Shown here piece after piece: positions 10,712 through 61,474 of a stretch of DNA of 64,000 nt. The stretch's first letter is position 1, and every line of letters starts with the position of its first letter. The stretch lies in IMG/VR virus record IMGVR_UViG_3300025000_000083, positions 8,211-72,210 of that record. One strand, written 5' to 3'. The DNA comes from a virus. Below the pieces are notes generated by a model. That model saw nothing but the letters and a program-made list of their open reading frames with translations, was not told the DNA's origin and made no database searches. Both the position numbers and the translations under genes were made by a program.

Positions 10712-10736
10712 TGAACTGTTGTTCATCTGTGCAAGT

Positions 10737-15449: not shown

Positions 15450-15565
15450 TTTTTCTGATGTATTTTTCAAGTTTCTTTTTAGCCCTTTTGAGTTTTCCCT
15501 TCTCAATTAATAAGGCTACATGAATATATTGTTCTAAACTAATGCCACTCATCGTTATATTTCTT

Positions 15566-15961: not shown

Positions 15962-15963
15962 GG

Positions 15964-19889: not shown

Positions 19890-19990
19890 AACTGAACTTA
19901 TTAATGACACTGAACTTAAAAAAGATGGAAGAGCGTTCAGTAAACCCTTGTCATCGGGGGATCAATCCCGACTATCCATCTTCAAAGATA
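19890..19990 (-). promoter_or_regulatory. promoter plus structured antisense-type leader (type B)
   Basis: TATCTTTG 19983-19990; TCGGGATTGATCCCCCGA hairpin; loop ACTGAAC complementary to 10-nt repeats at 19891 and 19909. Confidence 0.65.
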
Positions 19991-50047: not shown

Positions 50048-52294
50048 TTAATAACTTCTCAGCGAACTGTAAGTGATCTTCTTTAAATAATTGTCCATGG
50101 TGTACCCCTTTTCATCTATCTGTGCTATCTCATCAAATAATCCACGTGTGCCAAGTAATGCGTACCCCCCTGCTGTGAATAGGTCATAATTAGTCATATC
50201 CTCCGGGCCATCAATATCCCTGCACTCCTCCAATATCTCAGTGTGATTCTCTATATCTGCTTCATTCTCAATCCATGTCATGTACTCTGTAAAGATGTCC
50301 TGTTTAGTGCGGTTTGCGGTGTCACCGGGGGTGTTGCTTATCTTGAATGAGTTCGGGTCCATCTTATAAAGCAAGTATCCCTGATAACCCCTGTCTCTGA
50401 AATAGTCCCACAGGAACGGCACGTCAATCTCAGGGAACATAGGCACTCCGAAATAGATGCACATCATCAACATATCCTCTCCATAGATGTTCTTGTCGTA
50501 TGTCCTCTGAGCATAGGTGCAGGCAAACTTACGCTTCATCGCGAAGTCACCATCCTTTATCATCCCTTTCTTGACTACTGCACCACCTCCTTTGGACTTG
50601 CGATTTCCCTTGGTGATGTTGAACTTGAACGGGTCTCCTCCGGCTACTCCCCAATGGGCATTGGCAGGCTTCCACCCTTCCTCCTCGTCACTCCAAAACT
50701 TCTTATTCGATTCATTGTCATTTAGCTGGTGGCTTATCCTGAATTTGCCCTGTGAATTAGCGACAAACTCCACCCTACTGTCCCTGATATTTCCCTTCCA
50801 TACAAGGTTGCCTACTGCTATATTTTGTCTGCTGAAGGATAGTTCATCAATATATGATTCGAGTTTGTTCATGTTGAACCCTGATGACTTGGCTGATGTG
50901 CGAAAACACTCTGCAAACCGTATCGGGAACTTGCGTATCTCCTCAGACAATGCCTCCTGATCACCCTTTGCGGAATAACTCTTTCTCTGGTTTAAGATGT
51001 ACTCTTTTGCTCCAATGTCACTTCCGATGTACTCTCTCTGCTGTTTATTTGGTGTGTGGATGACACTCATTCCGTACTCATCAATGAACCCATCCAATCC
51101 ATCATAGGCGGGTATAAACAATGTGGCAAGTCCTGACTCCGGCTGACCATTGGGGTTTCTCCGGTAATAATTACTCATCTCACACTGATGCTTAAACACA
51201 CGACCTCCCCCTTTTTCCATCTCTCCAACAGTAGATGTCTTTATGGTGAACCCCTTGATGTTCACACCCTCTCCCAATGTCTCTTTTACTACAAGGTGAC
51301 GTGTCCAGCATGATAGTCCCTCGGTAAGTTTTCCCACCTCATCATCGTGGTGAAAATAGAGTTTCCATCCGTCATAAGCCCTTGGGTCTGCCACGGCATA
51401 GTTGATACTCGACTCCAATCCTAACTGAGACATGGACAATGAGCCACGTGATGAAAGTCTTGTGGACGGAGGTGCAAATGACAGTTCTGTTTTTGGTGAT
51501 GTGGATCCTTCGTAAAGAGGTTTGAAGAAGAACGGCAGCTTCTTCCATGGCTGTACGAGATGAACCAGAAAACACGCTCTGGCAGCCTTGTCGTTCATCG
51601 ACTGAATACCCCCTCTTGCATTGAGCATACGGCTTATGATCTCATAACCTATGCACTCAGCCTTGTATGTTGCTCCTTCACGTCTGTGCTTGGGATAGTT
51701 GAACCCATAGAATAACCTCCTCTTAAACTCTGTCCATTCATAGTTGCCTCTCTTATCTGTAATGGCAATACCATTGGCGTCACACTTGGGTGCTTTTGTC
51801 TCAGTATAAATCTTCCGTGCAAATAAAAAGAATCTCCTGTCCCTATCCCTATATTTTGGCAGTCCGACATCAATACTCCACCATCCACAATAGAAATGAT
51901 GCCATCCGTCAATATATGTAGGTACTCCGTTATTGTAAAACCAATAGCCATTAAGCCTCCTGTCCCATTGTAGTTTTATAAACGCAATTTCTTCCTCGTA
52001 TATATCCTGATGTGCTTCCAGTTCTGCCCATATATCGTCAAGGGTTTCAAGTTTCGACTGCAGTTCTTTCAGTCTCTTTGGCATTTTGGGAGGATGCCAC
52101 ATCTGCTCTCTTGCAGGAAGTCCCCAGTTATCTATCAGGTGTGGCTCCGGTGGCTGTGGAAGGACTATCTCTATTGGGATAAGGTCTTTGTCATCGGTGT
52201 TCACAAATACGCTCTTTTCCGCATCCTGATACCCTGCCAATATCTGAGCATCAACCTCCTTGTAATATCGTTTTAAGAGTGCGAGTGAGTTCAT
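50048..52294 (-). CDS. terL: terminase large subunit
   Basis: K.RREGAT Walker A variant, DEVGK Walker B, STVGEM, GGDPF nuclease motif. Confidence 0.9.
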   Translation of the reverse strand: MNSLALLKRYYKEVDAQILAGYQDAEKSVFVNTDDKDLIPIEIVLPQPPEPHLIDNWGLPAREQMWHPPKMPKRLKELQSKLETLDDIWAELEAHQDIYEEEIAFIKLQWDRRLNGYWFYNNGVPTYIDGWHHFYCGWWSIDVGLPKYRDRDRRFFLFARKIYTETKAPKCDANGIAITDKRGNYEWTEFKRRLFYGFNYPKHRREGATYKAECIGYEIISRMLNARGGIQSMNDKAARACFLVHLVQPWKKLPFFFKPLYEGSTSPKTELSFAPPSTRLSSRGSLSMSQLGLESSINYAVADPRAYDGWKLYFHHDDEVGKLTEGLSCWTRHLVVKETLGEGVNIKGFTIKTSTVGEMEKGGGRVFKHQCEMSNYYRRNPNGQPESGLATLFIPAYDGLDGFIDEYGMSVIHTPNKQQREYIGSDIGAKEYILNQRKSYSAKGDQEALSEEIRKFPIRFAECFRTSAKSSGFNMNKLESYIDELSFSRQNIAVGNLVWKGNIRDSRVEFVANSQGKFRISHQLNDNESNKKFWSDEEEGWKPANAHWGVAGGDPFKFNITKGNRKSKGGGAVVKKGMIKDGDFAMKRKFACTYAQRTYDKNIYGEDMLMMCIYFGVPMFPEIDVPFLWDYFRDRGYQGYLLYKMDPNSFKISNTPGDTANRTKQDIFTEYMTWIENEADIENHTEILEECRDIDGPEDMTNYDLFTAGGYALLGTRGLFDEIAQIDEKGYTMDNYLKKITYSSLRSY

Positions 52295-53622
52295 TGTGGT
52301 GTCGATTTGCCATGCAAGGTATAACCTTCTTCGTCATGGTGACATGTGAGTGTCGTTATAAGATACCCTTTTTTGCCTGTTGCCTTCATCTCTGCTGCAA
52401 GCCTCTCCCATAGATCAGCATCGGCAGGATTGGCTTTCCCTGTTGCTTCAAACACATCCCTTGCCCTTAATTGGGTGTCGGAATACTTTATACATGAACT
52501 CGAGCAGATCATTCCTCCGGGTACGGGAAGAAACTCAATCACCTGATCTGTTTTCGGAAGATATGGCAGGTGAATGTTTGAGTATGATGCCATGGTGCAG
52601 ACAAACAGTGGATTCTTTTCTTCGATGACCTTATTGATCAACTCCAAGTGATTTGGTTCCCACCAATCATCATGGTCATGGTGACAGATATAGTTTATCC
52701 CGTCCTTTAATGCCTCTGCAATGCCTGTTAATACTGCGGTGTTGCCACCTATGCTCCATAGTTCCATGCTCCCTGCCTGATACTTCTCACGTTCTACTGC
52801 ATGCGGAAGATTAATACATTTCACATTCAGATAAGGTGACACAACCGACTTCAACTCCTGATCATTTTCATAATGGTCTCCCATAACATATACCTGATAG
52901 TTTCTGAATGTCTGCAGGCTGATCTTTGATAATGCACGGTTAAGGTATCCGGGTGTCTTACCATCCCTGCGCATATACGTGGAGATGACAATGCCAATCT
53001 TCGGATTATTCTTTTTCAGGATGAAGCAATTACTATTGGTTATCTCTTTCGGAAATGCGCCTATCTCATTCTTTAATGAGCCAATGATCTCATATCCTCC
53101 CTGTAATGTTGTTAGCACCTTATCAACTGCAGGTCTTACTTCTGGACTGAATTGACTGTCAAGGTAGTCATCAAAAACTATGTATCCTCCTGCCTTGACT
53201 AATCCCGAATACATATTGAAGTCCTGAATGACATCATCAAATGAGTGTCCTCCGTCAATAAAGAGTATGTCAATACCATTTCCCCTGAGTGCTGTTCGTA
53301 ACCTGTTGAAAACTGCATTATCATGTGAACTGCCCTGTATGTACTCAAATCGGTTTCCGAGAACATTGTGCCTTAAAACATTTGCTGTGGCGGTTCCTGG
53401 TGCTATGGGCATGCCTGTGTCAATTGAGAACACATTTGTATTGGGTCTCTGAGTCATAAGACACGCACTCGCTCCGGCATAGCATCCTATCTCCACATAG
53501 TTTATTGTGCCGTGAAACAACCTTCCGATGTCATACAACACATGGAAATGATGGTGGAATGTCTTTATGGTTTTACTGATGTGCTCAGTCAGGATGACGG
53601 ATTCTCTTGAATGGACTATCAT
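52291..53622 (-). CDS. class I SAM methyltransferase (Methyltransf_24-like) fused to GT2 glycosyltransferase
   Basis: VEIGCYAGAS, DILFIDGGH, GGYIVFDDY; then IVISTY, HHDHDDWW.PNHL. Confidence 0.85.
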   Translation of the reverse strand: MIVHSRESVILTEHISKTIKTFHHHFHVLYDIGRLFHGTINYVEIGCYAGASACLMTQRPNTNVFSIDTGMPIAPGTATANVLRHNVLGNRFEYIQGSSHDNAVFNRLRTALRGNGIDILFIDGGHSFDDVIQDFNMYSGLVKAGGYIVFDDYLDSQFSPEVRPAVDKVLTTLQGGYEIIGSLKNEIGAFPKEITNSNCFILKKNNPKIGIVISTYMRRDGKTPGYLNRALSKISLQTFRNYQVYVMGDHYENDQELKSVVSPYLNVKCINLPHAVEREKYQAGSMELWSIGGNTAVLTGIAEALKDGINYICHHDHDDWWEPNHLELINKVIEEKNPLFVCTMASYSNIHLPYLPKTDQVIEFLPVPGGMICSSSCIKYSDTQLRARDVFEATGKANPADADLWERLAAEMKATGKKGYLITTLTCHHDEEGYTLHGKSTPQ

Positions 53623-54320
53623 ACTATTTTGCGGTAGTTACATGTTTTTGTCTGATTGAAAATATTAGGATTGTTCTTTCTGAACTCATAGTACGGGTGT
53701 CCCTTCACATAATAGTCCCACGTCAGGTGATAGGCTTTACTGATCTTTGTCTTTACCCATTTAAGCCTCTTTGATGCACATGCCATGCGAAAATCATTGT
53801 CTAATGCTTTCGGGGCATTGAGCATTATGTCAAGATTCCTGTTCTTTAGAGTCATTAGATGCGCTCCTGTCAGACATTCCACATAATTATTCCCAATAAA
53901 AGTCGGCTTTGGTAGCCAATCGGAAGGCTTTGCCAAATGATGCGGAAAATTAGTCATCTTTAAATCGACTGTGCACACTCCTATCTCCGGTCTCTCCAAT
54001 ATACCTCCCATCTCTGCAAAGGTGAATGTGATGTCGTCTATAAGTAAATCTCCATCGGTGAATGTGATGTATGAATACTGCCGGAGTAACATCTGATAGT
54101 CTTTCAGAAATCGCTTTACCGCATTATCCCCTATGTTTTCCTCAAACTGGACGTATCCTGCGAGTCTCTTATCCTTGAAATATGCCTCTATCTGAGGACT
54201 GTTTGGACTTGGATTCTCAATGATGAAATAATCCACTGCATCCATATAAATGCTCTCAAAGCACTTAACGATATGTTCATAGTTATTAAAACACCACAAT
54301 ATGCAGATGTGTTCTTTCAT
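53619..54320 (-). CDS. GT-A fold glycosyltransferase-like protein
   Basis: IIEN.S, TDGD (DxD), HL.W. Confidence 0.6.
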   Translation of the reverse strand: MKEHICILWCFNNYEHIVKCFESIYMDAVDYFIIENPSPNSPQIEAYFKDKRLAGYVQFEENIGDNAVKRFLKDYQMLLRQYSYITFTDGDLLIDDITFTFAEMGGILERPEIGVCTVDLKMTNFPHHLAKPSDWLPKPTFIGNNYVECLTGAHLMTLKNRNLDIMLNAPKALDNDFRMACASKRLKWVKTKISKAYHLTWDYYVKGHPYYEFRKNNPNIFNQTKTCNYRKIV

Positions 54321-54946
54321 TTACTATGGTAATTTGACACGACCACCTTGGTTATCGGCTCGTATGTGAGTAGCGTATTGTTCTCAATATCCTTATCCAC
54401 AGTCATCCCCGCATGTATGCCATTATCCCTGCCAATTCGGATATGAGGTGCAACTGCTGTCCTTATGCCAAAGAAGTTATTGCAGTTTACCGACACGTGG
54501 CCACAGAGTATTGTGGCTGACAGGACGTTGTTATTCCCCACCTTGCAGTCATGCCCGATTATTGACTGAGGACAAAAGTGATTGAAGTCCCCAATCTCAG
54601 TGTTTGCACCTATCATCACGTATGGATGTACAATATTGCCCTCTCCCATAACCGATGGCTCCTGAATTATTGCCAAGGGGTGTAATAGGTTGATGAACTT
54701 GCCTCCACGTGCCTTCATTTTCTCAATCATCTTCCACCGGAACTCAATGTTTGTCATCCCAATCACAAAGCGGTCATCCTCCTGTATCTCATAACTGTCA
54801 ATGTCTCCGAGTATGGGTTCCTTTAACTGGTATCGCTTCCAATATTTTTCGATGTTGTAATCAAATTCGAGATAACCTTTGATGTCCATGTCAAACCACT
54901 GCAGTTCTGATGCTACTGCACCTGTGCCTATGATGATTATGTTCAT
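54317..54946 (-). CDS. PglD/NeuD-like hexapeptide-repeat sugar acyltransferase
   Basis: IIIGTGAVA, NLLHP.A, IGHDC.VG left-handed beta-helix. Confidence 0.85.
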   Translation of the reverse strand: MNIIIIGTGAVASELQWFDMDIKGYLEFDYNIEKYWKRYQLKEPILGDIDSYEIQEDDRFVIGMTNIEFRWKMIEKMKARGGKFINLLHPLAIIQEPSVMGEGNIVHPYVMIGANTEIGDFNHFCPQSIIGHDCKVGNNNVLSATILCGHVSVNCNNFFGIRTAVAPHIRIGRDNGIHAGMTVDKDIENNTLLTYEPITKVVVSNYHSK

Positions 54947-55572
54947 GGTTTCGTGTATATGGGGAATTTACTGAGGTCTGGATATGGTAATGTAATATTT
55001 GGCATAACCTTTTTGCTCCCATCGAGATTATAAAATTTTGCCATATTAAGCAATCCAAGACTTGCTATCATTGGATTCATATAGAAATTCCATCCCAAAT
55101 CCGTAAAATTATCTTCATGGTAAGAAATTTCATTTCTCCCAGAGAAACGTGCTTTTTTAAACCACTCATAAGCATCCATGTCGTCTGTCAAAATACAACC
55201 ACCCTTACCTAAATTCAAGTGTTTGAAAGCTCCGGTGAATGAACAACACATGAAATATCCCGGAACGTACATATCTGCGGTAAAGCATAAAGCAGAGTCT
55301 ATTACGTTGACATCATGTAATTGATACCACCCTGTTAGGGTTTTTTCCCCTGTGTTATAAAATTTCACCGTTCCCCCTGCGTGAATTATTTCGCATGGAA
55401 CGCTCATGTATGTGCGACAAGGGATGGATATCGTTAACCCTGTAATGTTTGCACATTTTAATGCAAGAAACAAAGCATTACTCTCATTATCCGTGGTGAC
55501 ACAATACGGTGCTCCGGTGTATTTGGCAATCTCCAATTCAAATAGTTTAGTGACATTATGTGGATTCTCCAT
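54943..55572 (-). CDS. short DegT/DnrJ-family PLP sugar aminotransferase
   Basis: FE..IA.YTGA.Y, IDSA, SF...KHL..G.GG.ILTDD. Confidence 0.8.
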   Translation of the reverse strand: MENPHNVTKLFELEIAKYTGAPYCVTTDNESNALFLALKCANITGLTISIPCRTYMSVPCEIIHAGGTVKFYNTGEKTLTGWYQLHDVNVIDSALCFTADMYVPGYFMCCSFTGAFKHLNLGKGGCILTDDMDAYEWFKKARFSGRNEISYHEDNFTDLGWNFYMNPMIASLGLLNMAKFYNLDGSKKVMPNITLPYPDLSKFPIYTKP

Positions 55573-55792
55573 GGCATTTTTGTATTGTGGCTTCAATCAA
55601 CTTAAAACTGATCAAGTTCCCGACTATCTCATCCGGTATGGTGATGTCAAACTCCCTTTCAAGGAATACTATGAGATGCATGTGGCGCAATGAATCCCAA
55701 TTCTCAATGGTGTCCTGATTCGACTTATCGGTAATCTGCTCCACGGGAACACCGAATGCCTTTGCCATAATCGCCTTTATTCTTTCATTCAT
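55556..55792 (-). CDS. acyl carrier protein
   Basis: 78 aa acidic, WDSL phosphopantetheine-Ser motif, LE.EF.I. Confidence 0.9.
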   Translation of the reverse strand: MNERIKAIMAKAFGVPVEQITDKSNQDTIENWDSLRHMHLIVFLEREFDITIPDEIVGNLISFKLIEATIQKCHGEST

Positions 55793-56789
55793 AACAGAAA
55801 TGTTTTGCTGCTTTTGATTCGTATTTCAATATGTCAACACAATAAACGTACTCATCTTTGTCTCCGCTACATCTCTCAAACCCTAAGTTTGGATAGAATA
55901 ACTCAACCTGCTTGTTCTTTGGTGTCGGGATGTATTCTGCATACAGGTGCGTGTATTTTGACTTTTTAAGGTCTCTCATTATCGCATCCATGAACGCAAA
56001 CTCAATCCCTCTTCCAAGTATCCGACAACTGAGCAAAAATACAGCTATTATCCCATATTCGGGTGCGTCCCAATCAACTATAATGCACACTCCTGTCAGT
56101 CCGTTATCCCCAAATCTATCCCTTACAGATAATGAGTAAACTTTTGACTCAATCATCAAATCCTTTACGTCTGCCTCAGTGAGTCTTTGTGTAGTGAGAT
56201 TGAACTGATTGGTTTTTTGTGTCAGTTCTGCTATGCGGGGTATCTGTGACGTGTCATTGAGTTTTACCGTAATCACCATATCAAGTGACCTCAGATATTC
56301 GCTGATGTCTGTGAACTGTTCCTGTGCCTTTGCCCGTTGATAATTTGCCCTGTACTGCTGAGTTTTTAAGATGCTCCCTGTCAGATCAAAGTTTTCAAGT
56401 ACAGTTATCATCAAGTCCTTTGGATGTATTGCAATGACCTCCGGCAACTGCTTTTTTATCAACTCTCTCTCAAATTCCGAGTCGTCCACAATTACCATTG
56501 CATCGAGTCCGATGTTAAGTTCCTGTGCAATCTCTTTTAGATTTGATACCTTGTCCTTCCAGTTGATTCGCTTAACCGATATGAACTCCTCCCTGAGCAC
56601 CCCTCTTAAAGCATCAAGTACATCCTGCTCATTGTTCTTGCTGCACAAGCCTATTATCACTCCCTTGTGGGCAAAAAATAAGATGTCCTGCTGTATCTCC
56701 GTGTCGTGGATGATCTTATCCTCTCCGACCACTCCCTGCCATAGAGTGTTGTCACAATCAAAGATTATTGCTTTTTTCATTATTGACAT
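55785..56789 (-). CDS. fkbH: FkbH-like HAD-IIIC glyceryl-ACP synthase
   Basis: DCDNTLWQG, CSKN, VDDS.FER, KTNQFNLT, DRFGDNG, LSCRILGR.IE. Confidence 0.9.
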   Translation of the reverse strand: MSIMKKAIIFDCDNTLWQGVVGEDKIIHDTEIQQDILFFAHKGVIIGLCSKNNEQDVLDALRGVLREEFISVKRINWKDKVSNLKEIAQELNIGLDAMVIVDDSEFERELIKKQLPEVIAIHPKDLMITVLENFDLTGSILKTQQYRANYQRAKAQEQFTDISEYLRSLDMVITVKLNDTSQIPRIAELTQKTNQFNLTTQRLTEADVKDLMIESKVYSLSVRDRFGDNGLTGVCIIVDWDAPEYGIIAVFLLSCRILGRGIEFAFMDAIMRDLKKSKYTHLYAEYIPTPKNKQVELFYPNLGFERCSGDKDEYVYCVDILKYESKAAKHFCYE

Positions 56790-57169
56790 TTTACCAATGA
56801 AGTGCTACTTAATACCATTACTCCATGTTGATTGTATATATTTATACCAAGTTTTATCTGATTAAACTTTGGCATCTTATCCATTACCTGTGCTTCCACG
56901 GTTAATTCATCATTCACATATACAGGAGATAAAAATGATATATTTTGTCTAACCATAATTGCTCCTGCTCCGGGAAGATGCATCCCAATCATAGTAGATA
57001 TGTATGATGCCACCAACATCCCATGGACAATGGCCCCTTCTCCAATGTGTACTGGATTTTTATCACCTGTGATGCAAATAAATTCATCTACATCATCCTG
57101 ATATATCTTAACCTCTTTGGACACTTTTTGTCCTTTTTCAATTTCTTCGTACTTCATTTTTTTATGCAA
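56780..57169 (-). CDS. MaoC-like (hot-dog) dehydratase
   Basis: F..ITGD.NP.H, IVHGML..S..S...G..LPG.G. Confidence 0.9.
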   Translation of the reverse strand: MHKKMKYEEIEKGQKVSKEVKIYQDDVDEFICITGDKNPVHIGEGAIVHGMLVASYISTMIGMHLPGAGAIMVRQNISFLSPVYVNDELTVEAQVMDKMPKFNQIKLGINIYNQHGVMVLSSTSLVKCQ

Positions 57170-58026
57170 AATGCTCCGATTAATTCTGTCTGTTCATCTG
57201 CCCTCTCATTATGCATTGTAAGCCATAATAATCCAGCATCATTAATCATTCTCAATACATGCTCCTTGCTCCTGAAAAGATAAACATGGTCTATTGTAGG
57301 CGCATTGGTAGGTACTGTAAAGAATAACATGCCTCTCTCGGACAATAGACTTGATACGTTTTTAAGCATCGCAATAGGGTCGTCAAGATGTTCAAGTACC
57401 TCTCCAAGTATTATCAGTTCATATTTGAGTTCGGGATTTATTTCTGAGATGTCAAAATTCAAGTAGTGTATATTGTCCTCCCCTACCATTCTTCGTGTCA
57501 TTTCCAGAGATGTATCACTTATGTCCACGATGTCTATTCGTGAATAGTCCGGTTTTTCTGTTTTTACCACCCATGAAAATAGTCCATGTCCGGCACCAAT
57601 GTCCAATACTCTATAAATTCCGTGGCTCCCAATAAAAGCAGTTAATGTTCTTTTAAAATACCTGAGCATATTGAAGTGATGCTTCCATAATAACTGCGAT
57701 ATGAGTAGTGCGTTCATGTAGTATCTCATTACCTCCGGCATGGAGTACACCTTCTGATACGCTTCCGCTTGGTTTCTGCATGAATAGCTGTCGTACAGGA
57801 CAAAATAGCCGCCTTCTCGCCTCATGTCGCCTATCATACGGAGATAATCACTTGCCACGGTGTCTGCACTTATGCCTGATGCTTTAAAATAACTACAAAC
57901 ATGGTCTTTCAGGATATTAAACTCACGGCCAAGGCTTACCTGACGTTTAAGGGTCTTCATGTGCAAAGAATCTCTCTCTGCAATCACCCTCAACACCTGT
58001 TTTAAGAAATCTACTGAATTTTCCAT
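57154..58026 (-). CDS. class I SAM-dependent methyltransferase
   Basis: VLDIGAGHG, EVLEHL.DP. Confidence 0.85.
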   Translation of the reverse strand: MENSVDFLKQVLRVIAERDSLHMKTLKRQVSLGREFNILKDHVCSYFKASGISADTVASDYLRMIGDMRREGGYFVLYDSYSCRNQAEAYQKVYSMPEVMRYYMNALLISQLLWKHHFNMLRYFKRTLTAFIGSHGIYRVLDIGAGHGLFSWVVKTEKPDYSRIDIVDISDTSLEMTRRMVGEDNIHYLNFDISEINPELKYELIILGEVLEHLDDPIAMLKNVSSLLSERGMLFFTVPTNAPTIDHVYLFRSKEHVLRMINDAGLLWLTMHNERADEQTELIGAFCIKK

Positions 58027-58955
58027 AGATTTGCTCCAAAATTAAATCCTGCACCCACCCCTGCGAGCATCAATAGACTGCCCGACTTGATTAATCCCTT
58101 GCGAAATGCCTCATCCAAGGCTATCCCTATGCTCGCTGCCCCTGTATTGCCTATCTCCTCTACATTAGTGTAGGTTTTTTCGTGGGGTATCCGGTGTTTA
58201 TCCATGATGTAGTCAATAAGCACCTTGTTTGCCTGATGAAATATGAAGAAATCCACGTCCTTCATGGCTATTTTTGATGAGTGGCACAACTCTTTCATCA
58301 CATACGGCACACTGGTTATCGCCTGAGTCCATGTCTCCTTGCCGTTATGCTCAATAAAGCCTCCTCTTTTCAATCTTACATCTTCGTATGCTGATGAATC
58401 GGTGCAAAAGAATGAGTTCAGGTGTCCAAATCCTTCCGGCACCCTGCCAAGTAATACCCCTGATGCTCCGTCTGAGAAAAATGGTGCGGTGAACTTGTCT
58501 GTTTTGTCAACATACTTTGAAAGCACCTCAACACCGATGACCATTGCAAACTTAATCTTTGGGTTTGCCCTCATCCTCTCTACTGCAATTGTTGTTCCGG
58601 TTATTATTCCTGTGCAGTTGGTGTTGATGTCAAGTATCTGGCAGTCCTTTGGAGCACCTATTGACCAGTGTACCTTTGCTGACATAGGAGGTAGCATGTA
58701 GTCCTGACTGAAAGAGCATACTATGATTAACCCTATCTCTGGAATACTGCCCTTTAGTCCATAAGCCAGTCTATTTGCAATGACTCCTGCCATTATTGAC
58801 GGACTTTCACCATTGGCAAGATGTCTCTTTTTAATCCCTGTTTTTTCAAGTATCCACTGAGGTGTCAGTCCTTCCACATCCCGACATACGGACTCATTGC
58901 TTTGAACAAATAGAGGCAAATAACTTGCTGATCTTAATATCCCTATTCCTGTCAT
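58011..58955 (-). CDS. fabH: 3-oxoacyl-ACP synthase III-like enzyme
   Basis: WI..KTGI..R, NCTG (Cys), FHQAN (His), GNTGAAS (Asn), G.GAG. Confidence 0.9.
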   Translation of the reverse strand: MTGIGILRSASYLPLFVQSNESVCRDVEGLTPQWILEKTGIKKRHLANGESPSIMAGVIANRLAYGLKGSIPEIGLIIVCSFSQDYMLPPMSAKVHWSIGAPKDCQILDINTNCTGIITGTTIAVERMRANPKIKFAMVIGVEVLSKYVDKTDKFTAPFFSDGASGVLLGRVPEGFGHLNSFFCTDSSAYEDVRLKRGGFIEHNGKETWTQAITSVPYVMKELCHSSKIAMKDVDFFIFHQANKVLIDYIMDKHRIPHEKTYTNVEEIGNTGAASIGIALDEAFRKGLIKSGSLLMLAGVGAGFNFGANLWKIQ

Positions 58956-59647
58956 GCGTGTACCCCTCCAAGGTATATCGTTTGCGAAGTAATGTAAGAG
59001 CTTTTTGGAGAGCAAAAGAAGTCAATGACATTGGTGATATCATCCATGGTGGCATATCTTGGTATTGGCAGTCCTGCAACCACCTTGTCAAGTTTCTCTT
59101 TATTCAACTGCCGTGACATGTCCGTGTCAATAGCTGATATTCCAAGGGTGTTCACCGTTATCCCGAATCCTGCAAACTCCTTTGCCATGATGTTCGACAT
59201 CTTATTGAGTCCGGCTTTACATGCTGCGTACATGGAGTCTCCCATTGGTTCAAGTGCGACTGCCATTGAACTGATGTTTATTATCTGTCCTCCGTTCTTC
59301 ATCAGTTTTGCGGATTCTCTGGCTACAAGGAAAGGTGCAAGTAAATCTATAAGTACCATTCCTTCTGCGTCATCCTCCGACATGCGTGTGGCATATTGTG
59401 ATGTAAGAATTGCGGCATTGTTAATGCAAATATTGATGCGAGTATAACTTTTTTTAATAAACTCAAAAGCATCTTCTATCTGCTCTGGCTTTGAAAGGTC
59501 TGTTTTTATGCACTTGTAATTATCATCAATATCTCCGACTGACGACAATCCAATGACATAAGCATGGTTTTTAATAAAATGGTCAGTAAGTGCCGAGCCT
59601 ACTCCCTTTGTTGTTCCTGTGATTAAAACTGTCTTTCCTGAATACAT
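58952..59647 (-). CDS. short-chain dehydrogenase/reductase (FabG-like)
   Basis: TGTTKGVG, NNAA, S..Y...K (YAACK). Confidence 0.9.
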   Translation of the reverse strand: MYSGKTVLITGTTKGVGSALTDHFIKNHAYVIGLSSVGDIDDNYKCIKTDLSKPEQIEDAFEFIKKSYTRINICINNAAILTSQYATRMSEDDAEGMVLIDLLAPFLVARESAKLMKNGGQIINISSMAVALEPMGDSMYAACKAGLNKMSNIMAKEFAGFGITVNTLGISAIDTDMSRQLNKEKLDKVVAGLPIPRYATMDDITNVIDFFCSPKSSYITSQTIYLGGVHA

Positions 59648-59649
59648 AG

Positions 59650-60270
59650 CTATTTATATTTAATGGGAAATATTGCGTCCCCAGGCTCTACGTGCGGTAT
59701 GGAATAAAAGTTTGGTTTGCCCATACATATCCATTGTTCGCCGTGGAATCTGTTCTTCAAATCAAGTTTATCAATCGGAGGACACCTGTTGATGTACTCT
59801 CTCCGAAACCACCAGAAGTTACCTGAGAAATGGTTTGGCGACTTCAAGTATCCCATGGATGACACCTCGTATTCGCTCTCTACCCTATCCCTATGTTCTC
59901 TCCACCTGTTTAACACCATCTCATTCATGTATGTTCTCCACTGCTGTATGACACCTTCAAAAGGTCTTGTTACTCCCTTGGTGTGGAAATAGAAGCCTAC
60001 ATAGTAGCTGTCATCTGCCTCAATAAGCCTGAGTGTAGGGAACTCATAGTCCTCTGCCCTCTCAGAATGATATTTTATCTTTAGTTTCGGGTACACGTCC
60101 ACAACATACTTCTGTAAAAAGTCCCTCTCTACATGACTGCCGATACACCCTATGCTTATTTCTTCACATTCATCATATAAGCCGGATGTCAGTAAAATGC
60201 GCATCTGATCTGTGACAATCGTGTACCAGGAATTGATCATGTAAATATGCCAGAAACCACGTATTTTCAT
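59650..60270 (-). CDS. putative glycosyltransferase-like protein
   Basis: YEFPTL, YFHTKG, HFSGNFWW, R...E.WI motifs as recalled from viral glycan clusters. Confidence 0.55.
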   Translation of the reverse strand: MKIRGFWHIYMINSWYTIVTDQMRILLTSGLYDECEEISIGCIGSHVERDFLQKYVVDVYPKLKIKYHSERAEDYEFPTLRLIEADDSYYVGFYFHTKGVTRPFEGVIQQWRTYMNEMVLNRWREHRDRVESEYEVSSMGYLKSPNHFSGNFWWFRREYINRCPPIDKLDLKNRFHGEQWICMGKPNFYSIPHVEPGDAIFPIKYK

Positions 60271-60271
60271 G

Positions 60272-60628
60272 TCAATATCTTGTTTTATTAGAAAAAACGT
60301 ACCATTCTGATAATTTTGATTCAGGGTATAACTCGCAAACCTTATCGGCTAATTCCGTTATTGCATCAATAAAAGAATAATTACTTCCTCTTGCAATCCA
60401 ATCTTTTTCGAGTAATGGATTATTCCTCAACAACATATTTTCAGGTGTTTCGCAAAGTATCTTCTGCTCTCCATCCATTGCATCGTCCTTCCATAAACGG
60501 GGGTAGTCTTTATTCTGAATTGACCATGTAAAGCCACCATCATATACCCACTCAATTCTGCAGGGGATTTCAGATTCATAAATACTTTCAATTACCATTG
60601 ATGCCTGTGCAAATGTTAATCTGTTCAT
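60272..60628 (-). CDS. hypothetical protein
   Basis: 118-aa ORF, tightly packed. Confidence 0.55.
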   Translation of the reverse strand: MNRLTFAQASMVIESIYESEIPCRIEWVYDGGFTWSIQNKDYPRLWKDDAMDGEQKILCETPENMLLRNNPLLEKDWIARGSNYSFIDAITELADKVCELYPESKLSEWYVFSNKTRY

Positions 60629-60629
60629 A

Positions 60630-60857
60630 TTAGTTTAAATCTATTGGTTTTTTGTCTGGTGTCCAAAATATAGGTTCTCCAATTTTCTGAGAGCCAGAAT
60701 AAGGGATTGCGTGTTCTCCTTCGTCAGTATAACAAACAATTTTATCACCTTCAATCCATCCATGAGATAAAACATTTATATCCCGCATGTCAAGTATTTT
60801 ACCACATCCTTTGCATAAAAGCTGATGTTCTTTTGGTATTTCTGCTTTCTTTTTCAT
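60630..60857 (-). CDS. hypothetical protein (CxxC)
   Basis: 75 aa, coupled overlap. Confidence 0.5.
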   Translation of the reverse strand: MKKKAEIPKEHQLLCKGCGKILDMRDINVLSHGWIEGDKIVCYTDEGEHAIPYSGSQKIGEPIFWTPDKKPIDLN

Positions 60858-61474
60858 TTCTTCACCTCCTGCGCTTTCTTTGCGTAGTCCTCGGGACGTA
60901 AGGCTAATCTCTCCTCTTCCAAATATCGGAGAATTTCGTCTTTTAGATGAGGGTTGTTGTCCTCATTCAACATCTCCGTAAGGTTGCGTTCCAGATCATC
61001 TCTCATGTCAGCAAGGGTCTTTAATCCCTTTGTCTCTCCTGACTGTATTTCAAGCATCAGATTGGCATAAGCCGTCTCAATGGATATTTGGTAGCTATAG
61101 TTATAGCTCCGATGCATCCTGACAAACTGAACTATCTTTTTATTCACGATGGTGTTTCGTCCTCTGAGAAAATCTTCTACAGGTGAGTCAAAAACTCCCT
61201 CTGCATTAACTTCAAAACCTACATCATGGACTACCTCAATTTTCCTTTTCAAAATGTCTGAGTATTTTTTCCGGTATGGAGATCCTTTGTCGTACATCAG
61301 TAGCACATAGAGATTCACCTTGTCATTGTCCAGCTTCTCCCCTGCACTCGCCTTGAACTCTTTGATCTTATTGAGCTCTTTATAGTAAGTTAATACCGAT
61401 GTTCCTTCGGGAACTTTATCCACGTTGAATAACATGGAGGTAAATTCTTTGGAATGAAAATTATTCGCTTTCAT
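60854..61474 (-). CDS. hypothetical helical protein, possible terminase small subunit
   Basis: 206 aa beside GroES-like gene upstream of packaging block; function inferred from position only. Confidence 0.45.
   Translation of the reverse strand: MKANNFHSKEFTSMLFNVDKVPEGTSVLTYYKELNKIKEFKASAGEKLDNDKVNLYVLLMYDKGSPYRKKYSDILKRKIEVVHDVGFEVNAEGVFDSPVEDFLRGRNTIVNKKIVQFVRMHRSYNYSYQISIETAYANLMLEIQSGETKGLKTLADMRDDLERNLTEMLNEDNNPHLKDEILRYLEEERLALRPEDYAKKAQEVKK

What the first reader, a model, noticed from the sequence alone, without database searches (positions are those of the whole stretch)
52291..60270. Phage-encoded ACP/FkbH/FabH acyl-aminosugar assembly line coupled to the packaging operon: candidate virion glyco-acylation system
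Seen: eleven consecutive, overlapping or abutting genes: GT-like, SDR, FabH (Cys/His/Asn intact), SAM-MT, MaoC, FkbH (DxDxT and SCR), ACP (DSL), DegT aminotransferase, PglD-like acyltransferase, GT-like, MT-GT2. The last stop overlaps the terminase start (52291-52294). Known: FkbH loads glycerate from 1,3-bisphosphoglycerate onto ACP; FkbH plus dehydratase plus ketoreductase gives lactyl-ACP; FabH-like enzymes can transfer acyl groups from ACP; DegT makes NDP-amino sugars. Similar gene sets form bacterial flagellin-glycosylation and O-antigen islands. Inference: the phage builds an (O-methyl)glyceryl/lactyl-amide amino sugar and attaches it during late expression, probably to capsid or tail proteins. 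A host-surface or DNA target is possible. A complete thiotemplate pathway in a crAss-like virion operon is unusual to my knowledge.
Basis: partly seen in the sequence, partly recalled or inferred. Interest (0 to 1): 0.9.

Follow-up and report, generated by a model that had tools for sequence, protein, structure and literature searches.

The report
Swappable phage glycan island, acyl-sugar module
A complete groundwater phage carries, just ahead of its DNA-packaging gene, a strain-variable kit of soluble enzymes that probably builds an unusually acylated amino sugar and a short methylated glycan, most likely to coat its own particles.

Summary
Eleven translationally chained minus-strand genes (59650-60270 down to 52291-53622) end in an ATGA overlap with the large terminase. 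Nine are assigned by Pfam or NCBIfam. The first (gA) has a GT-A fold. The tenth (gB) is a divergent GT2.

The cluster is not an assembly artefact. Independent contigs bridge it, and three related IMG/VR phages keep it beside TerL (73-77% identical).

Two new points:
- The acyl core, SDR-FabH-MT-MaoC-FkbH-ACP, is a trimmed copy of an ordered cassette from Bacteroidota surface-polysaccharide loci. There it sits with FdtA, DegT and a GNAT. The phage FkbH copies form one clade inside those bacterial sequences.
- The site between a conserved 206-aa gene and TerL is a hypervariable glycan island. It is empty in 7 of 48 related contigs. Elsewhere it holds different glycosyltransferase, methyltransferase and sugar-tailoring sets.

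The biosynthetic reading (N-acylated amino sugar plus glycan) is well supported. The exact acyl group is unresolved. The target is unproven: virion proteins are favoured, and host glycan or DNA are not excluded. The "crAss-like" label was not verified.

Two earlier notes of this scan describe sister islands in other genomes.

The parts
60854..61474 (-). g60854, a conserved 206-aa gene that forms the upstream border of the island. It abuts TerL in island-less relatives. It may be the small terminase, but this is unassigned.
   Evidence: Homologues (39-79% identity) occur in 24 related loci. The gap to TerL is -7 to 24 nt in 7 loci. There is no Pfam, PHROG or PDB-profile hit.
60272..60857 (-). 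Two small ORFs (75 aa with CxxC pairs, and 118 aa) between the border gene and gA. They were not found in L001-L003.
   Evidence: ORFs. No family hits. No tblastn hit in L001-L003.
59650..60270 (-). gA, a GT-A-fold transferase of a virus-rich family (precomputed PF27674). It lacks a DxD motif. It is the first gene of most islands with both borders in related phages.
   Evidence: AF2 pLDDT 84.6. Foldseek PDB E 4e-6 to RmlT, plus GtrB, DPMS and ArnC. VIA Z 13.9 to heparosan synthase. BFVD TM 0.72-0.82 to cyanophage, chlorovirus-size and klosneuvirus proteins. hhalign probability 99.2% to the middle domain of GT34-X proteins. Present in 14 of 16 islands with both borders.
58952..59647 (-). FabG-like short-chain dehydrogenase/reductase (ketoreductase).
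   Evidence: PF13561 132.7 bits and PF00106 116.3 bits. TIGR01830 143.9 bits, below its cut-off of 297.75. 50-58% identical to the stand-alone SDR of the bacterial cassette.
58011..59015 (-). FabH-like KAS III with an intact Cys-His-Asn triad. The start is probably the internal ATG at residue 21.
   Evidence: PF08541 94.7 bits and PF08545 54.5 bits. Aligned to 2ebd at E 1e-40 with the triad conserved. 45-60% identical to the cassette FabH in 17 of 80 bacterial loci.
57154..58026 (-). Class I SAM methyltransferase. It is an optional module: absent from L001 and L003.
   Evidence: PF13489 61 bits. 42-48% identical to the cassette MT in bacteria. Absence in L001 and L003.
56780..57169 (-). MaoC-type (R)-hydratase/dehydratase. 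It corresponds to the DH half of the bacterial MaoC-SDR fusion.
   Evidence: PF01575 53.8 bits. The bacterial homologue is a 395-aa MaoC+SDR fusion.
55785..56789 (-). FkbH-domain protein (HAD phosphatase plus acyl-transfer core). It lacks the roughly 216-250-aa N-terminal extension of the bacterial homologues.
   Evidence: TIGR01686 233.4 bits against a cut-off of 146.65, covering profile positions 2-320 of 323. DxDxT and Cys invariant. Bacterial ORFs are 579-584 aa.
55556..55792 (-). Acyl carrier protein.
   Evidence: PF00550 23 bits against a cut-off of 20.8. W-D-S invariant in 4 phage copies.
54943..55596 (-). Mini-DegT, a PLP-enzyme core of about 209 aa (probable ATG at 55572). It lacks the C-terminal domain and about 45 residues of the large domain.
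   Evidence: PF01041 55 bits. The profile aligns to 7b0m residues 36-108 and 173-249 of 375, with the Schiff-base Lys column conserved. K125 and D100 are invariant in 8 phage copies. The best 120 relatives are all 205-231 aa.
54317..54946 (-). NeuD/PglD/PerB-like left-handed beta-helix N-acyltransferase.
   Evidence: TIGR03570 117.4 bits, below its cut-off of 160.8. Aligned to PerB 4ea7 and PglD 2npo/3bss at E 1e-15, with the His of the H-D/E-C motif conserved.
53619..54320 (-). gB, a divergent GT2-type (GT-A) glycosyltransferase.
   Evidence: 185 representatives in the 50%-identity library. 24 of 60 aligned members hit PF00535. D89 is nearly invariant and D91 and H198 are invariant. Atlas feature neighbours are viral GT2 clusters at score 0.98. 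The AF2 model is unusable.
52291..53622 (-). Fusion of Methyltransf_24 (CmcI / rhamnosyl-O-methyltransferase type) and GT2. Its stop overlaps the TerL start.
   Evidence: PF13578 58.2 bits, PF04989 35 bits and PF00535 27.2 bits. ATGA overlap. 71% identical in L001, L003 and L121.
50048..52294 (-). Large terminase, the downstream border of the island.
   Evidence: phrog_6681 at E 1.5e-72. 57-80% identical in 48 IMG/VR loci.

Best explanation
The region is one allele of a hypervariable glycan-biosynthesis island. The island sits between a conserved 206-aa gene and the large terminase in a clade of uncultivated phages of about 72-78 kb. The hosts are probably Bacteroidota and the habitat is groundwater and soil.

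Shown by sequence and synteny: this allele joins three modules.
1. An ACP-dependent acyl module (FkbH, ACP, MaoC dehydratase, FabG-like reductase, FabH-like KAS III, SAM methyltransferase). The phage lineage acquired it once, from a Bacteroidota-type surface-polysaccharide cassette, and then trimmed it.
2. An amino-sugar module (mini-DegT PLP enzyme, PglD/PerB-like N-acyltransferase).
3. Three soluble GT-A-type transferases, one of them fused to a sugar-O-methyltransferase-type domain.

Inferred mechanism:
- A host PPTase activates the ACP.
- FkbH loads a glycerate-derived unit from 1,3-bisphosphoglycerate onto the ACP.
- The dehydratase, reductase and methyltransferase tailor this unit to a lactyl or O-methylated hydroxy-acyl form. 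The Cys-His-Asn FabH may also extend it by one malonyl unit.
- The mini-DegT aminates a host-made NDP-4-keto-6-deoxyhexose.
- The PglD-like enzyme puts the ACP-borne acyl group on the amine.
- The transferases assemble and methylate a short glycan in the cytoplasm.

The acceptor is most likely one or more virion proteins, so that each phage strain has its own glycan coat. This last step is inference only. The confidence given (0.5) is for the whole statement including the virion target; the biosynthetic part alone I put at about 0.85.
For: Gene families and catalytic motifs.

Conservation in related phages:
- L001 keeps 10 of the 11 genes, L003 keeps 10 of 11 and L002 keeps 8 of 11, all next to a TerL that is 73-77% identical.
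- L002 swaps the PglD-like enzyme, gB and MT-GT2 for a GNAT, FdtA, a Polysacc_synt_2 dehydratase, six GT2-type genes and a methyltransferase.

Bacterial origin:
- In 80 FkbH-related bacterial loci, the phage proteins hit ACP in 54, MaoC in 39, MT in 29, SDR in 25 and FabH in 17, in the same order.
- L014 reads FdtA x2-SDR-MBL-FabH-MT-MaoC::SDR-FkbH-ACP-AMP ligase-GNAT-DegT-GT2. L015 lies among DegT, formyltransferase, GT2 and Acyl_transf_3 genes.
- The L002 GNAT and FdtA are 42-52% identical to those of the bacterial cassettes.
- PglD-like genes adjoin MaoC-FkbH-ACP in 5-6 bacterial loci.

Single acquisition: the 4 phage FkbH copies form one clade (SH-aLRT 100) inside a mainly Bacteroidota group.

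Hypervariable island, among 48 related loci:
- 7 are empty.
- 16 have both borders, with 3.1-9.4 kb of cargo.
- 14 are cut contigs with island genes directly upstream of TerL.
- The cargo that could be assigned is almost all glycan-related: GT2, 10, 11, 17, 25 and 92, sugar C-, O- and FkbM-type methyltransferases, a RmlD-like reductase, WbqC, a PglD-like enzyme and a radical SAM enzyme.

Cytoplasmic action: no transmembrane-like segment in the island proteins tested.

Virion lead:
- gA belongs to a family shared with chlorovirus-size and klosneuvirus glycosyltransferase proteins.
- gA matches the middle domain of GT34-X(-MT) proteins. This is the architecture described for PBCV-1 A064R, whose D2 domain is a cation-independent capsid-glycan rhamnosyltransferase (PMC9614988, passages read).

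Precedents:
- N-(2,3-di-O-methylglyceroyl)-pseudaminic acid occurs on C. jejuni flagellin (PMC3068675, passages). The flagellar glycosylation locus of that strain holds an FkbH-domain gene, cj1302 (PMC7099621, passage).
- Mycobacteriophage capsid and tail-tube glycosylation (Freeman 2023, seen only as cited in PMC12619734).

Assembly: single contigs of X1 and X8 span 51500-61000 with no differences. Both runs are flagged as possible sources of this DNA, so they are not independent. The independent sample X11 covers 30 of 30 bins at >=99% identity.
Against: - No experiment or read-level data bear on the product or the target.
- Comparing MCP between island-bearing (10) and island-less (3) relatives gave 0 discriminating columns of 469 and no length difference. 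Two other virion-module proteins gave only 1 and 10 such columns, with n=3. No acceptor signature was therefore found.
- This allele lacks a sugar 4,6-dehydratase, a nucleotidyltransferase, a PPTase and the KR half of the bacterial DH-KR. The pathway cannot run without host enzymes.
- The mini-DegT lacks a whole domain and may not be an aminotransferase.
- PglD and PerB relatives use acyl-CoA, not acyl-ACP (molecule names; cofactor recalled).
- The FabH has a full condensing triad, so the acyl chain may not be a simple C3 unit.
- The same hot spot in L003 also holds a DNA methylase and a PAPS-reductase-type gene. The site is therefore not exclusively glycan cargo.
- GT-A enzymes without membrane anchors also act on lipid-linked intermediates of host polysaccharides.
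- gA-like domains are also fused to bacterial heptosyltransferase and TPR proteins.
Confidence: 0.5

Rival explanations
1. Host-envelope remodelling. The island makes an acylated amino-sugar nucleotide and glycan that enter the host's own lipid-linked O-antigen, capsule or protein O-glycosylation pathway during infection. This would change the cell surface, for example to block superinfection or to stop progeny from re-adsorbing to debris.
For: - The acyl cassette and its FdtA, DegT and GNAT partners come from bacterial surface-polysaccharide loci.
- Soluble GT2 enzymes commonly act on undecaprenyl-linked intermediates (established knowledge).
- This allele needs host keto-sugar precursors.
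- gA-like domains are fused to heptosyltransferase-type proteins in bacteria.
Against: - No initiating phosphoglycosyltransferase, flippase, polymerase or ligase, and no transmembrane segment, in the island proteins tested.
- No integrase or other lysogeny gene was seen among the ORFs scanned, so seroconversion by a prophage is unlikely.
- The island is chained to the packaging gene rather than placed in a moron-type position with its own signals.
Confidence: 0.22
2. DNA hypermodification. The glycosyltransferases and the acyl/PLP enzymes decorate phage DNA bases to evade restriction, as in glucosylated or arabinosylated hydroxymethyl-pyrimidine phages.
For: - Phage glycosyltransferases that hypermodify DNA with diverse glycans are known (Pyle 2024, seen only as cited in PMC12619734).
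- The same hot spot holds DNA methylases and a PAPS-reductase-type gene in L003, L107 and L130.
Against: - No thymidylate-synthase-type hydroxymethylase, hydroxymethyl-dNMP kinase, DNA polymerase or base-exchange enzyme was found by Pfam or PHROGs in the ORFs scanned across the 72-kb genome. About half of those ORFs have no annotation.
- The mini-DegT co-occurs with a 4,6-dehydratase and a 3,4-ketoisomerase in sister alleles, which points to nucleotide-sugar chemistry.
- Fucosyltransferase-type and C-methyl-sugar genes in other alleles fit oligosaccharide building better than base modification.
Confidence: 0.07
3. The acyl module is separate from the sugar module. FabH, FabG-like SDR and MaoC make (R)-3-hydroxybutanoyl- or crotonyl-ACP for N-acylation, a very common sugar N-acyl group. 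FkbH supplies a different glyceryl decoration, or the cassette makes a small tetronate- or polyketide-like metabolite.
For: - FabH keeps the full decarboxylating Cys-His-Asn triad.
- FabH, FabG and a dehydratase form one classical elongation round.
- FkbH plus ACP plus a FabH-like enzyme is also the tetronate cassette signature (recalled, not tested).
Against: - There is only one ACP.
- The six genes keep a fixed order with FkbH in 17 bacterial loci, next to amino-sugar genes.
- No polyketide synthase, thioesterase or export gene is present in the phage.
Confidence: 0.15
4. Recent, decaying or chimeric capture of host DNA with no function in the phage.
For: The enzymes are shortened relative to their bacterial homologues: FkbH 334 aa against 579-584, DegT 209 against 370-376, MaoC 129 against 395.
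Against: - All 11 ORFs are intact and translationally coupled.
- Four phage copies have diverged to 40-87% identity with catalytic residues kept.
- GC content (0.40-0.43) matches the rest of the genome.
- The short forms are themselves large conserved families.
- Contigs of several runs bridge the junctions.
Confidence: 0.02

Closest known systems
FkbH/ACP acyl cassettes in Bacteroidota-type surface-polysaccharide loci (e.g. loci L014, L015, L005-L008); uncharacterised as far as the searches made here show
   Same: Same genes in the same order (SDR-FabH-MT-MaoC-FkbH-ACP) at 40-60% identity. They are linked to FdtA, DegT, a GNAT or PglD-like N-acyltransferase and GT2 genes. The phage FkbH copies nest among them.
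   Different: The phage copy lacks the MBL-fold gene, the AMP-ligase, the KR half of the MaoC-SDR fusion and the N-terminal roughly 216-250 aa of FkbH. Its DegT is halved. There are no membrane proteins. It sits in a virus next to the terminase.
Campylobacter jejuni NCTC 11168 flagellin glycosylation locus, which makes Pse5(2,3-di-O-methylglyceroyl)7Ac
   Same: A glycerate-derived, O-methylated N-acyl group on an amino sugar that is attached in the cytoplasm to a structural protein (PMC3068675, passages). The locus holds an FkbH-domain gene, cj1302 (PMC7099621, passage).
   Different: There is no nonulosonic-acid pathway and no Maf-type transferase here. Homology to the C. jejuni genes was not tested. 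That the C. jejuni locus also has acpP and fabH paralogues is recalled only.
Mycobacteriophage virion glycosylation (Freeman et al. 2023)
   Same: Phage-encoded soluble glycosyltransferases that decorate capsid and tail-tube subunits. Known here only through the passage in PMC12619734.
   Different: The paper itself could not be read. Those phages are described as carrying a few glycosyltransferases. No ACP-dependent acyl or amino-sugar pathway and no terminase-adjacent hypervariable island is known to me from them (recalled).
Giant-virus autonomous glycosylation (chlorovirus PBCV-1 A064R; mimivirus viosamine pathway L136/L142)
   Same: - Cytoplasmic, virus-encoded GT plus methyltransferase multidomain enzymes build capsid glycans.
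- A064R-D2 is a cation-independent GT of a new family.
- Mimivirus encodes a sugar aminotransferase and an N-acetyltransferase with a catalytic His (PMC9614988, passages).
- gA lacks DxD and matches the middle domain of GT34-X(-MT) proteins.
   Different: Identity of the matched proteins with A064R was not verified, because no A064R sequence was on hand. The hosts are eukaryotes. Those systems have no ACP or FkbH module.
FkbH-DH-KR-ACP lactyl starter modules and methoxymalonyl-ACP pathways of polyketide synthases (BryA, OzmB, FkbGHIJK)
   Same: FkbH loading of a glycerate unit on ACP, followed by dehydration, ketoreduction or O-methylation (recalled biochemistry). The bacterial cassette has the same MaoC::SDR-FkbH-ACP order.
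   Different: No polyketide synthase is present. The product is inferred to end on an amino sugar. The phage has only one reductase.

Membership tests
FkbH domain family (TIGR01686) | Whole-protein score above the curated cut-off, covering the whole domain | tested here: met
   233.4 bits against 146.65, covering profile positions 2-320 of 323.
FkbH domain family (TIGR01686) | HAD DxDxT phosphatase motif and the conserved Cys that carries the glyceryl thioester (motif roles recalled) | tested here: met
   D11, D13, T15 and C255 are invariant in 4 phage copies.
FkbH domain family (TIGR01686) | Loads a glycerate unit from 1,3-bisphosphoglycerate onto ACP | not testable with these tools
   This is a biochemical assay.
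KAS III / FabH | Both ACP_syn_III domains and the Cys-His-Asn triad | tested here: met
   PF08541 94.7 bits and PF08545 54.5 bits. The triad columns are conserved against 2ebd.
KAS III / FabH | NCBIfam FabH subfamily cut-off | tested here: not met
   NF006829 219 bits against a cut-off of 249. TIGR00747 189.8 bits against 292.1. It is FabH-like, not a housekeeping FabH.
DegT/DnrJ/EryC1 sugar aminotransferases | Pfam PF01041 gathering score and the Schiff-base lysine | tested here: met
   55 bits against 19.8. The Lys column is aligned with 7b0m and 3bn1. K125 is invariant in 8 copies.
DegT/DnrJ/EryC1 sugar aminotransferases | Full two-domain fold-type-I architecture of about 360-390 aa | tested here: not met
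   The protein is 209-217 aa. It matches only residues 36-108 and 173-249 of a 375-aa enzyme. The best 120 relatives are all 205-231 aa.
NeuD/PglB/VioB (PglD-like) N-acyltransferases | TIGR03570 curated cut-off | tested here: not met
   117.4 bits against 160.8.
NeuD/PglB/VioB (PglD-like) N-acyltransferases | N-terminal domain plus left-handed beta-helix with the catalytic His | tested here: met
   Profile positions 2-196 of 202 are matched. The His aligns with the H-D/E-C motif of PerB and PglD. The catalytic role of this His is recalled, and is supported for the mimivirus homologue by PMC9614988.
Acyl carrier protein | PP-binding domain with the phosphopantetheine serine | tested here: met
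   PF00550 23 bits against 20.8. The D-S serine is invariant.
GT-A glycosyltransferases (gA) | GT-A / nucleotide-diphospho-sugar transferase fold | tested here: met
GT-A glycosyltransferases (gA) | DxD metal-binding motif | tested here: not met
   There is no DxD after strand 4. An invariant F-H-x-K stands there instead. Nucleotidyltransferases score nearly as well as glycosyltransferases.
A064R-D2-like cation-independent GT family | Homology to the D2 domain of PBCV-1 A064R | tested here: inconclusive
   gA matches the middle domain (residues 236-426) of a 545-aa protein with an N-terminal GT34-type domain. It also matches 634-638-aa proteins. No A064R sequence was on hand to confirm the link.
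GT2 (gB) | Pfam PF00535 match and a DxD motif | tested here: inconclusive
   The window protein itself has no hit. 24 of 60 family members do. D89 is nearly invariant and D91 is invariant. hhalign to two island GT2 proteins found nothing.
Wzx/Wzy- or ABC-type surface-polysaccharide locus | Initiating phosphoglycosyltransferase, flippase, polymerase or ligase (membrane proteins) | tested here: not met
   No family hit of that kind. The highest 19-residue hydropathy is 1.64 or less in the 11 island proteins and 1.51 or less in the L002/L003 extras.
Phage DNA hypermodification systems | Hydroxymethyl-pyrimidine synthase or kinase, or a base-exchange enzyme | tested here: not met
   None was found by Pfam or PHROGs in the ORFs scanned across the 72-kb genome. 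Many of those ORFs are unannotated.
Phage virion glycosylation systems | Glycan covalently attached to capsid or tail proteins | not testable with these tools
   This needs mass spectrometry of particles. The comparative MCP test was uninformative.
Crassvirales (crAss-like phages) | Placement by hallmark-gene phylogeny | not tested
   TerL is 27-31% identical to Elemovirus, Cellulophaga, Maribacter and one uncultured phage. The Elemovirus record lists no order.

The most novel reading that the evidence does not exclude
A clade of environmental Bacteroidota phages carries an O-antigen-like 'serotype locus' of its own. This is a hot-swappable island next to the terminase whose alleles each encode a different cytoplasmic glycan pathway for coating the virion. 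This allele adds the first phage-borne FkbH/ACP route to a glycerate-derived N-acyl amino sugar. It runs on miniaturised enzymes, including a half-size DegT that works without its C-terminal domain.
Probability: 0.4. Interest if true: 0.85.

Novelty: new variant of a known kind. Interest (0 to 1): 0.72.

Why it matters
If the glycan ends on the particle, tailed phages of environmental bacteria would have strain-variable sugar coats. These would be built by their own pathways, as giant viruses and some mycobacteriophages do, and would use chemistry so far known only from bacterial O-antigens and flagellins.

That bears on three things:
- how phages are recognised, by grazers, by defence systems, or through adsorption to non-host surfaces;
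- why closely related phages differ at one hot spot;
- how metabolic cassettes are trimmed after capture.

The locus also gives compact, soluble versions of FkbH, DegT and other enzymes. These could define the minimal catalytic cores of those families. In addition, it points to an uncharacterised but widespread bacterial cassette for N-acyl amino sugars.

Tried and rejected
- AF2 of gB from a 3-sequence alignment failed (pLDDT 44.8), and no fold search was run on it.
- hhalign of gB against two island GT2 proteins found nothing.
- PDB profile searches gave no credible hit for gA or shallow gB. The deep gB profile gave only a weak GT2 hit at E 0.11.
- The border genes g60854 and g61476 got no assignment from Pfam, PHROGs or PDB profiles. 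'Small terminase' remains a guess.
- The comparison of MCP, g46512 and g44053 between island-bearing and island-less relatives gave no usable acceptor signature.
- No RNA holder was listed among the sequencing runs, so nothing can be said on expression or timing.
- Run X13 left one of 30 bins without cover. This is not interpreted.
- The sigma-70 promoter/terminator scan was not run, because Bacteroidota and phage-RNAP promoters are outside its scope.
- The careful tree search did not finish in 300 s, so the quick IQ-TREE result was used. One bacterial row with an HSP under 250 residues was dropped before the tree.
- The IMG/VR FkbH scan depends on two peptide patterns and is not exhaustive.
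- L167 (30% identity) showed no other cluster gene and was not followed.
- Literature searches:
  - 'fkbh'+'bacteriophage': 3 papers, none on a phage-encoded FkbH judging by title, abstract start or the passage read.
  - 'fkbh'+'glycosylation island': 1 paper.
  - 'glyceryl-acp'+'o-antigen': 0 papers.
  - 'crass-like'+'glycosyltransferase'+'acyl carrier protein': 0 papers.
  - 'phage'+'capsid'+'glycosylated'+'degt'+'glycosyltransferases': 1 general review.
- Freeman 2023 is not held in the library.

Full report
**Setting.** The window is bases 8211-72210 of a 72,210-bp virus record with 127-bp direct terminal repeats. CheckV rates it complete. Nearly all genes lie on the minus strand.
- PHROGs identifies a large terminase (50048-52294, phrog_6681, E 1.5e-72), a portal protein (47732-50026) and a capsid-type virion protein (45071-46444). 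It also finds an endolysin, primase/helicase, RecE-, RecT- and RusA-like genes and many homing endonucleases.
- The nearest phages in GenBank are one uncultured phage, Maribacter phage Panino, Flavobacterium Elemovirus and Cellulophaga phages, at 27-31% TerL identity.
- The Elemovirus record lists no order, so the label 'crAss-like' is unverified.
- BACON and Fib_succ_major domains in tail-region proteins, together with the relatives' hosts, point to a Bacteroidota host.
- The runs that hold the DNA are groundwater and soil metagenomes.

**The observation.** Eleven ORFs run head to tail from 60270 down to 52291. Neighbours overlap or are 1-2 nt apart. The last stop shares ATGA with the TerL start.
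- Eight ORFs pass Pfam cut-offs: Methyltransf_24+GT2, Hexapep, DegT, PP-binding, MaoC, Methyltransf_23, ACP_syn_III and adh_short.
- FkbH passes NCBIfam TIGR01686 at 233.4 bits against a cut-off of 146.65.
  - The DxDxT motif and the Cys of FkbH are invariant in four phage copies.
  - The FabH Cys, His and Asn columns match Aquifex FabH 2ebd.
  - The ACP D-S serine is invariant.
  - The His of the PglD/PerB H-D/E-C motif is kept.
- The two 'GT-like' ORFs needed more work.
  - gA (59650-60270) gives a confident model (pLDDT 84.6) with a GT-A fold. Foldseek scores E 4e-6 to RmlT and also hits GtrB, DPMS and ArnC. VIA gives Z 13.9 to a heparosan synthase domain, with nucleotidyltransferases close behind. 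gA has no DxD; an invariant F-H-x-K stands in its place.
  - gB (53619-54320) could not be folded (pLDDT 44.8). It belongs to a family of 185 representatives. Of 60 aligned members, 24 match Pfam GT2. A DxD motif and a His are invariant or nearly so.
- One correction. The 'DegT' is a half-size protein of about 209 aa from the likely ATG.
  - It aligns to residues 36-108 and 173-249 of a 375-aa sugar aminotransferase and keeps the Schiff-base lysine column. It has no C-terminal domain.
  - This is not a truncation artefact. The best 120 relatives in the 5.8-billion-protein collection are all 205-231 aa.

**Not an artefact or a recent capture.**
- Single contigs in two runs (20.4 and 18.4 kb) span 51500-61000 without a difference. 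Both runs are flagged as possible sources of this DNA.
- An independent sample (X11) covers 30 of 30 bins at >=99% identity.
- Three IMG/VR contigs from other metagenomes carry the cluster beside a TerL that is 73-77% identical. L001 and L003 keep 10 of the 11 genes (the 290-aa methyltransferase is missing). L002 keeps 8 of 11.
- Identities of 40-87% with intact frames and conserved catalytic residues mean long maintenance.
- GC content is like the rest of the genome.

**Origin of the acyl module.** A pattern scan of one genome per prokaryote species returned 80 FkbH-related loci at 34-47% identity, mostly Bacteroidota MAGs.
- Phage proteins hit ACP in 54 of these loci, MaoC in 39, MT in 29, SDR in 25 and FabH in 17. 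The hits always fall in the phage order.
- Two loci were annotated.
  - L014 reads FdtA x2, SDR, MBL-fold, FabH, MT, MaoC::SDR fusion, 579-aa FkbH, ACP, AMP-ligase, GNAT, 372-aa DegT, GT2.
  - L015 has the same core among a hexapeptide acyltransferase, two DegT genes, a formyltransferase, a WbmS-type deacetylase, a GNAT, a GT2, an epimerase and three Acyl_transf_3 genes.
- The GNAT and FdtA of the L002 phage allele are 42-52% identical to those of these cassettes.
- PglD-like genes adjoin MaoC-FkbH-ACP in another 5-6 bacterial loci.
- In bacteria, then, the cassette is wired to a 3,4-ketoisomerase, an aminotransferase and an N-acyltransferase. That is the signature of an N-acyl amino-deoxyhexose.
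- In a quick maximum-likelihood tree of 84 rows, the four phage FkbH copies form one clade (SH-aLRT 100) on a long stem. They sit inside a 14-row, mainly Bacteroidota/Ignavibacteriota group (SH-aLRT 90) whose members have the full cassette. This fits one old acquisition.
- The phage version is trimmed. It has no MBL gene, no AMP-ligase, no KR half of the DH-KR fusion and no N-terminal extension of FkbH, and its DegT is halved.

**The locus is an allele of a hypervariable island.** TerL relatives at 57-80% identity were fetched with 10-kb flanks, giving 48 loci. The conserved 206-aa gene g60854 marks the upstream border.
- In 7 loci g60854 abuts TerL (gap -7 to 24 nt).
- In 16 loci both borders are present with 3.1-9.4 kb between them.
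- 14 cut contigs show island genes directly upstream of TerL.
- 1 cut contig was unclassified at that step, and 10 were uninformative.
- The ACP/FkbH module occurs in 3 of these loci (L001, L113 and L123, the last two being the contigs of L002 and L003), plus the window.
- Other alleles hold:
  - gA with one to several GT2-type genes;
  - gA plus a short Polysacc_synt_2 dehydratase, the mini-DegT and five or six GT2 genes;
  - GT10- and GT11-type fucosyltransferases, and GT17, GT25, GT92 and TOD1-type genes;
  - NDP-hexose C-methyltransferase-type genes, a B12/radical-SAM enzyme and an FkbM methyltransferase;
  - an RmlD-like reductase;
  - in L086, a different N-acyl set (PglD-like, BKACE, MT, WbqC) next to a mini-DegT.
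- Non-glycan cargo is rare: DNA methylases and a PAPS-reductase-type gene in L003, L107 and L130, and a GIY-YIG endonuclease in L127.
- More distant phages (TerL 27-31% identical) have no island upstream of TerL.

**How it most likely works.**
- Shown: the families, the motifs, the synteny and the absence of membrane segments. The highest 19-residue hydropathy is 1.64, inside the FkbH core.
- Inferred from established FkbH biochemistry (recalled: OzmB, FkbH, and the BryA DH-KR-FkbH-ACP lactyl starter): FkbH loads a glycerate unit on holo-ACP. The MaoC dehydratase and a reductase convert it towards lactyl. The methyltransferase O-methylates a hydroxyl. This step is optional, since two sister phages lack the gene.
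- FabH keeps the decarboxylating triad. One malonyl extension followed by FabG-type reduction, giving a C5 dihydroxy- or methoxy-acyl chain, is as likely as a pure acyl-transfer role. I cannot name the acyl group.
- The mini-DegT would aminate an NDP-4-keto-6-deoxyhexose. The host must supply this sugar, because this allele has no dehydratase or nucleotidyltransferase.
- The PglD/PerB-like enzyme would acylate the amine. Its solved relatives act on 4-amino sugars (molecule names). That they use acetyl-CoA is recalled.
- gA, gB and the MT-GT2 fusion would then build and methylate a short glycan in the cytoplasm.

**Target.** Nothing computed here fixes it.
- Four things favour virion proteins:
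  - The machinery is purely soluble.
  - It is coupled to the packaging gene.
  - The allelic diversity is typical of exposed glycans.
  - gA resembles viral glycosyltransferases. Its best viral structural matches (TM 0.72-0.82) are cyanophage proteins, 445-638-aa proteins with no name in the tables at hand (the M1-series accessions are chlorovirus as far as I recall) and klosneuvirus 'glycosyltransferase' proteins. Its domain is fused to Methyltransf_24, GT2, GT9 or GT34 domains in 67 longer proteins. It aligns (hhalign 99.2%) to residues 236-426 of a 545-aa protein whose N-terminus is GT34-like.
- That GT34-X(-MT) layout is the one described for PBCV-1 A064R. Its D2 domain (residues 213-438) is a cation-independent rhamnosyltransferase of a new family that builds the capsid N-glycan, and its D3 domain is a methyltransferase (PMC9614988, passages of sections 22, 46, 47 and 50). 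I could not align A064R itself.
- Against this reading, MCP shows no column (0 of 469) or length difference between 10 island-bearing and 3 island-less relatives.
- Host-glycan remodelling remains possible. The cassette's ancestry is bacterial surface polysaccharide, and soluble GT2 enzymes can use lipid-linked acceptors.
- DNA modification is less likely. No hydroxymethylase, kinase, polymerase or base-exchange gene was found in the ORFs scanned across the genome, though many of those ORFs are unannotated.

**What is known.**
- An N-(2,3-di-O-methylglyceroyl) amino sugar on a cytoplasmically glycosylated protein is documented for C. jejuni 11168 flagellin (PMC3068675, abstract and discussion passages). 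That strain's glycosylation locus has an FkbH-domain gene (PMC7099621, one passage).
- Phage virion glycosylation is documented for mycobacteriophages, and DNA glycosylation for other phages. Both are known here only through a passage and reference list in PMC12619734, because Freeman 2023 is not held.
- I found no paper on a phage-encoded FkbH/ACP pathway or on a terminase-adjacent glycan island. The searches are those, and the library lacks most subscription journals.
- The IMG/VR pattern scan found FkbH relatives on only 4 contigs, 3 of them in this clade.
- Earlier notes of this scan on other genomes (all unchecked AI notes, not independent evidence):
  - e1-5848779 and e1-3506595 describe sister islands and reach the same reading.
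  - e1-3854330 reads a bacterial FkbH-ACP cassette as a sugar-decorating module.
  - e1-5742194 reads an FkbH/ACP cassette in a T4-like phage as DNA modification.

**Verdict.**
- The biosynthetic interpretation is well supported; I put it at about 0.85.
- The exact acyl group is open.
- Odds for the target: virion about 0.5, host glycan about 0.2, DNA under 0.1.
- The finding is a new variant of known kinds: phage or giant-virus self-glycosylation, and bacterial ACP-fed N-acyl sugar cassettes.
- Three features stand out: the FkbH/ACP module in a phage, the hypervariable island at a fixed site, and the miniaturised enzymes.

Noticed in passing
window 54943-55596 (and L001-L003, L086, L088, L089, L100, L106): A large family of half-size DegT-like proteins (205-231 aa). 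They keep the Schiff-base Lys but lack the C-terminal domain. They seem typical of these phage islands and could define a minimal PLP sugar-enzyme core.
   Followed up: partly
window 2754-3191, 6566-7351, 9836-10726, 13505-14299, 62544-63563 (HNH); 12012-12944, 19143-19910, 37262-38074, 42931-43635 (phrog_314 / GIY-YIG type): At least nine homing-endonuclease-type genes are scattered through the replication and structural modules. This is a high load for a 72-kb phage.
   Followed up: no
window 21069-28106: A 2345-aa protein with an LPD38 domain and matches to phrog_9854 and phrog_14770. It lies between the tail region and the endolysin and may be an injected or virion-associated giant protein.
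   Followed up: no
window 33297-35744 and 35754-37271: Tail-region proteins carry a BACON domain and fn3 plus Fib_succ_major domains. These are carbohydrate-binding modules typical of Bacteroidota and Fibrobacter and give a clue to the host.
   Followed up: no
G000:C1:802-1668 (outside the window; L168): A 288-aa protein matches DUF6734 at E 5.5e-39 near the left genome end. Its function is unknown.
   Followed up: no
L086:1372-4033: A sister island carries a different N-acyl set next to the mini-DegT: a PglD-like enzyme, a beta-keto acid cleavage enzyme (BKACE), a methyltransferase and WbqC. This may be a second phage route to an unusual N-acyl sugar.
   Followed up: no
L111:6347-7555; L094:7475-8698; L127:6623-7828: Other alleles hold a B12-binding radical-SAM enzyme and NDP-hexose C-methyltransferase-type genes (Methyltransf_14). 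This suggests branched or C-methylated sugars in phage glycans.
   Followed up: no
L003:13158-13886, 15196-16041 and 8157-8666: A DNA N6/N4 methylase, a PAPS-reductase-type gene and a YopX-domain ORF are inserted inside the sister island. The hot spot therefore also accepts non-glycan cargo.
   Followed up: no
collection records of the window's gA and mini-DegT (P0016, P0124): The exact proteins occur on 25-28 contigs. The longest is 216,338 bp, close to three genome lengths (3 x 72,210 = 216,630). It may be a concatemer assembly.
   Followed up: no
bacterial loci L005-L018, L026, L044, L056, L058, L061, L075: A conserved cassette, SDR-MBL-FabH-MT-MaoC::SDR-FkbH-ACP-AMP ligase(-GNAT), occurs in Bacteroidota, Ignavibacteriota and other polysaccharide loci. 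No paper turned up in the two searches that bear on it. Its sugar product is unknown.
   Followed up: partly
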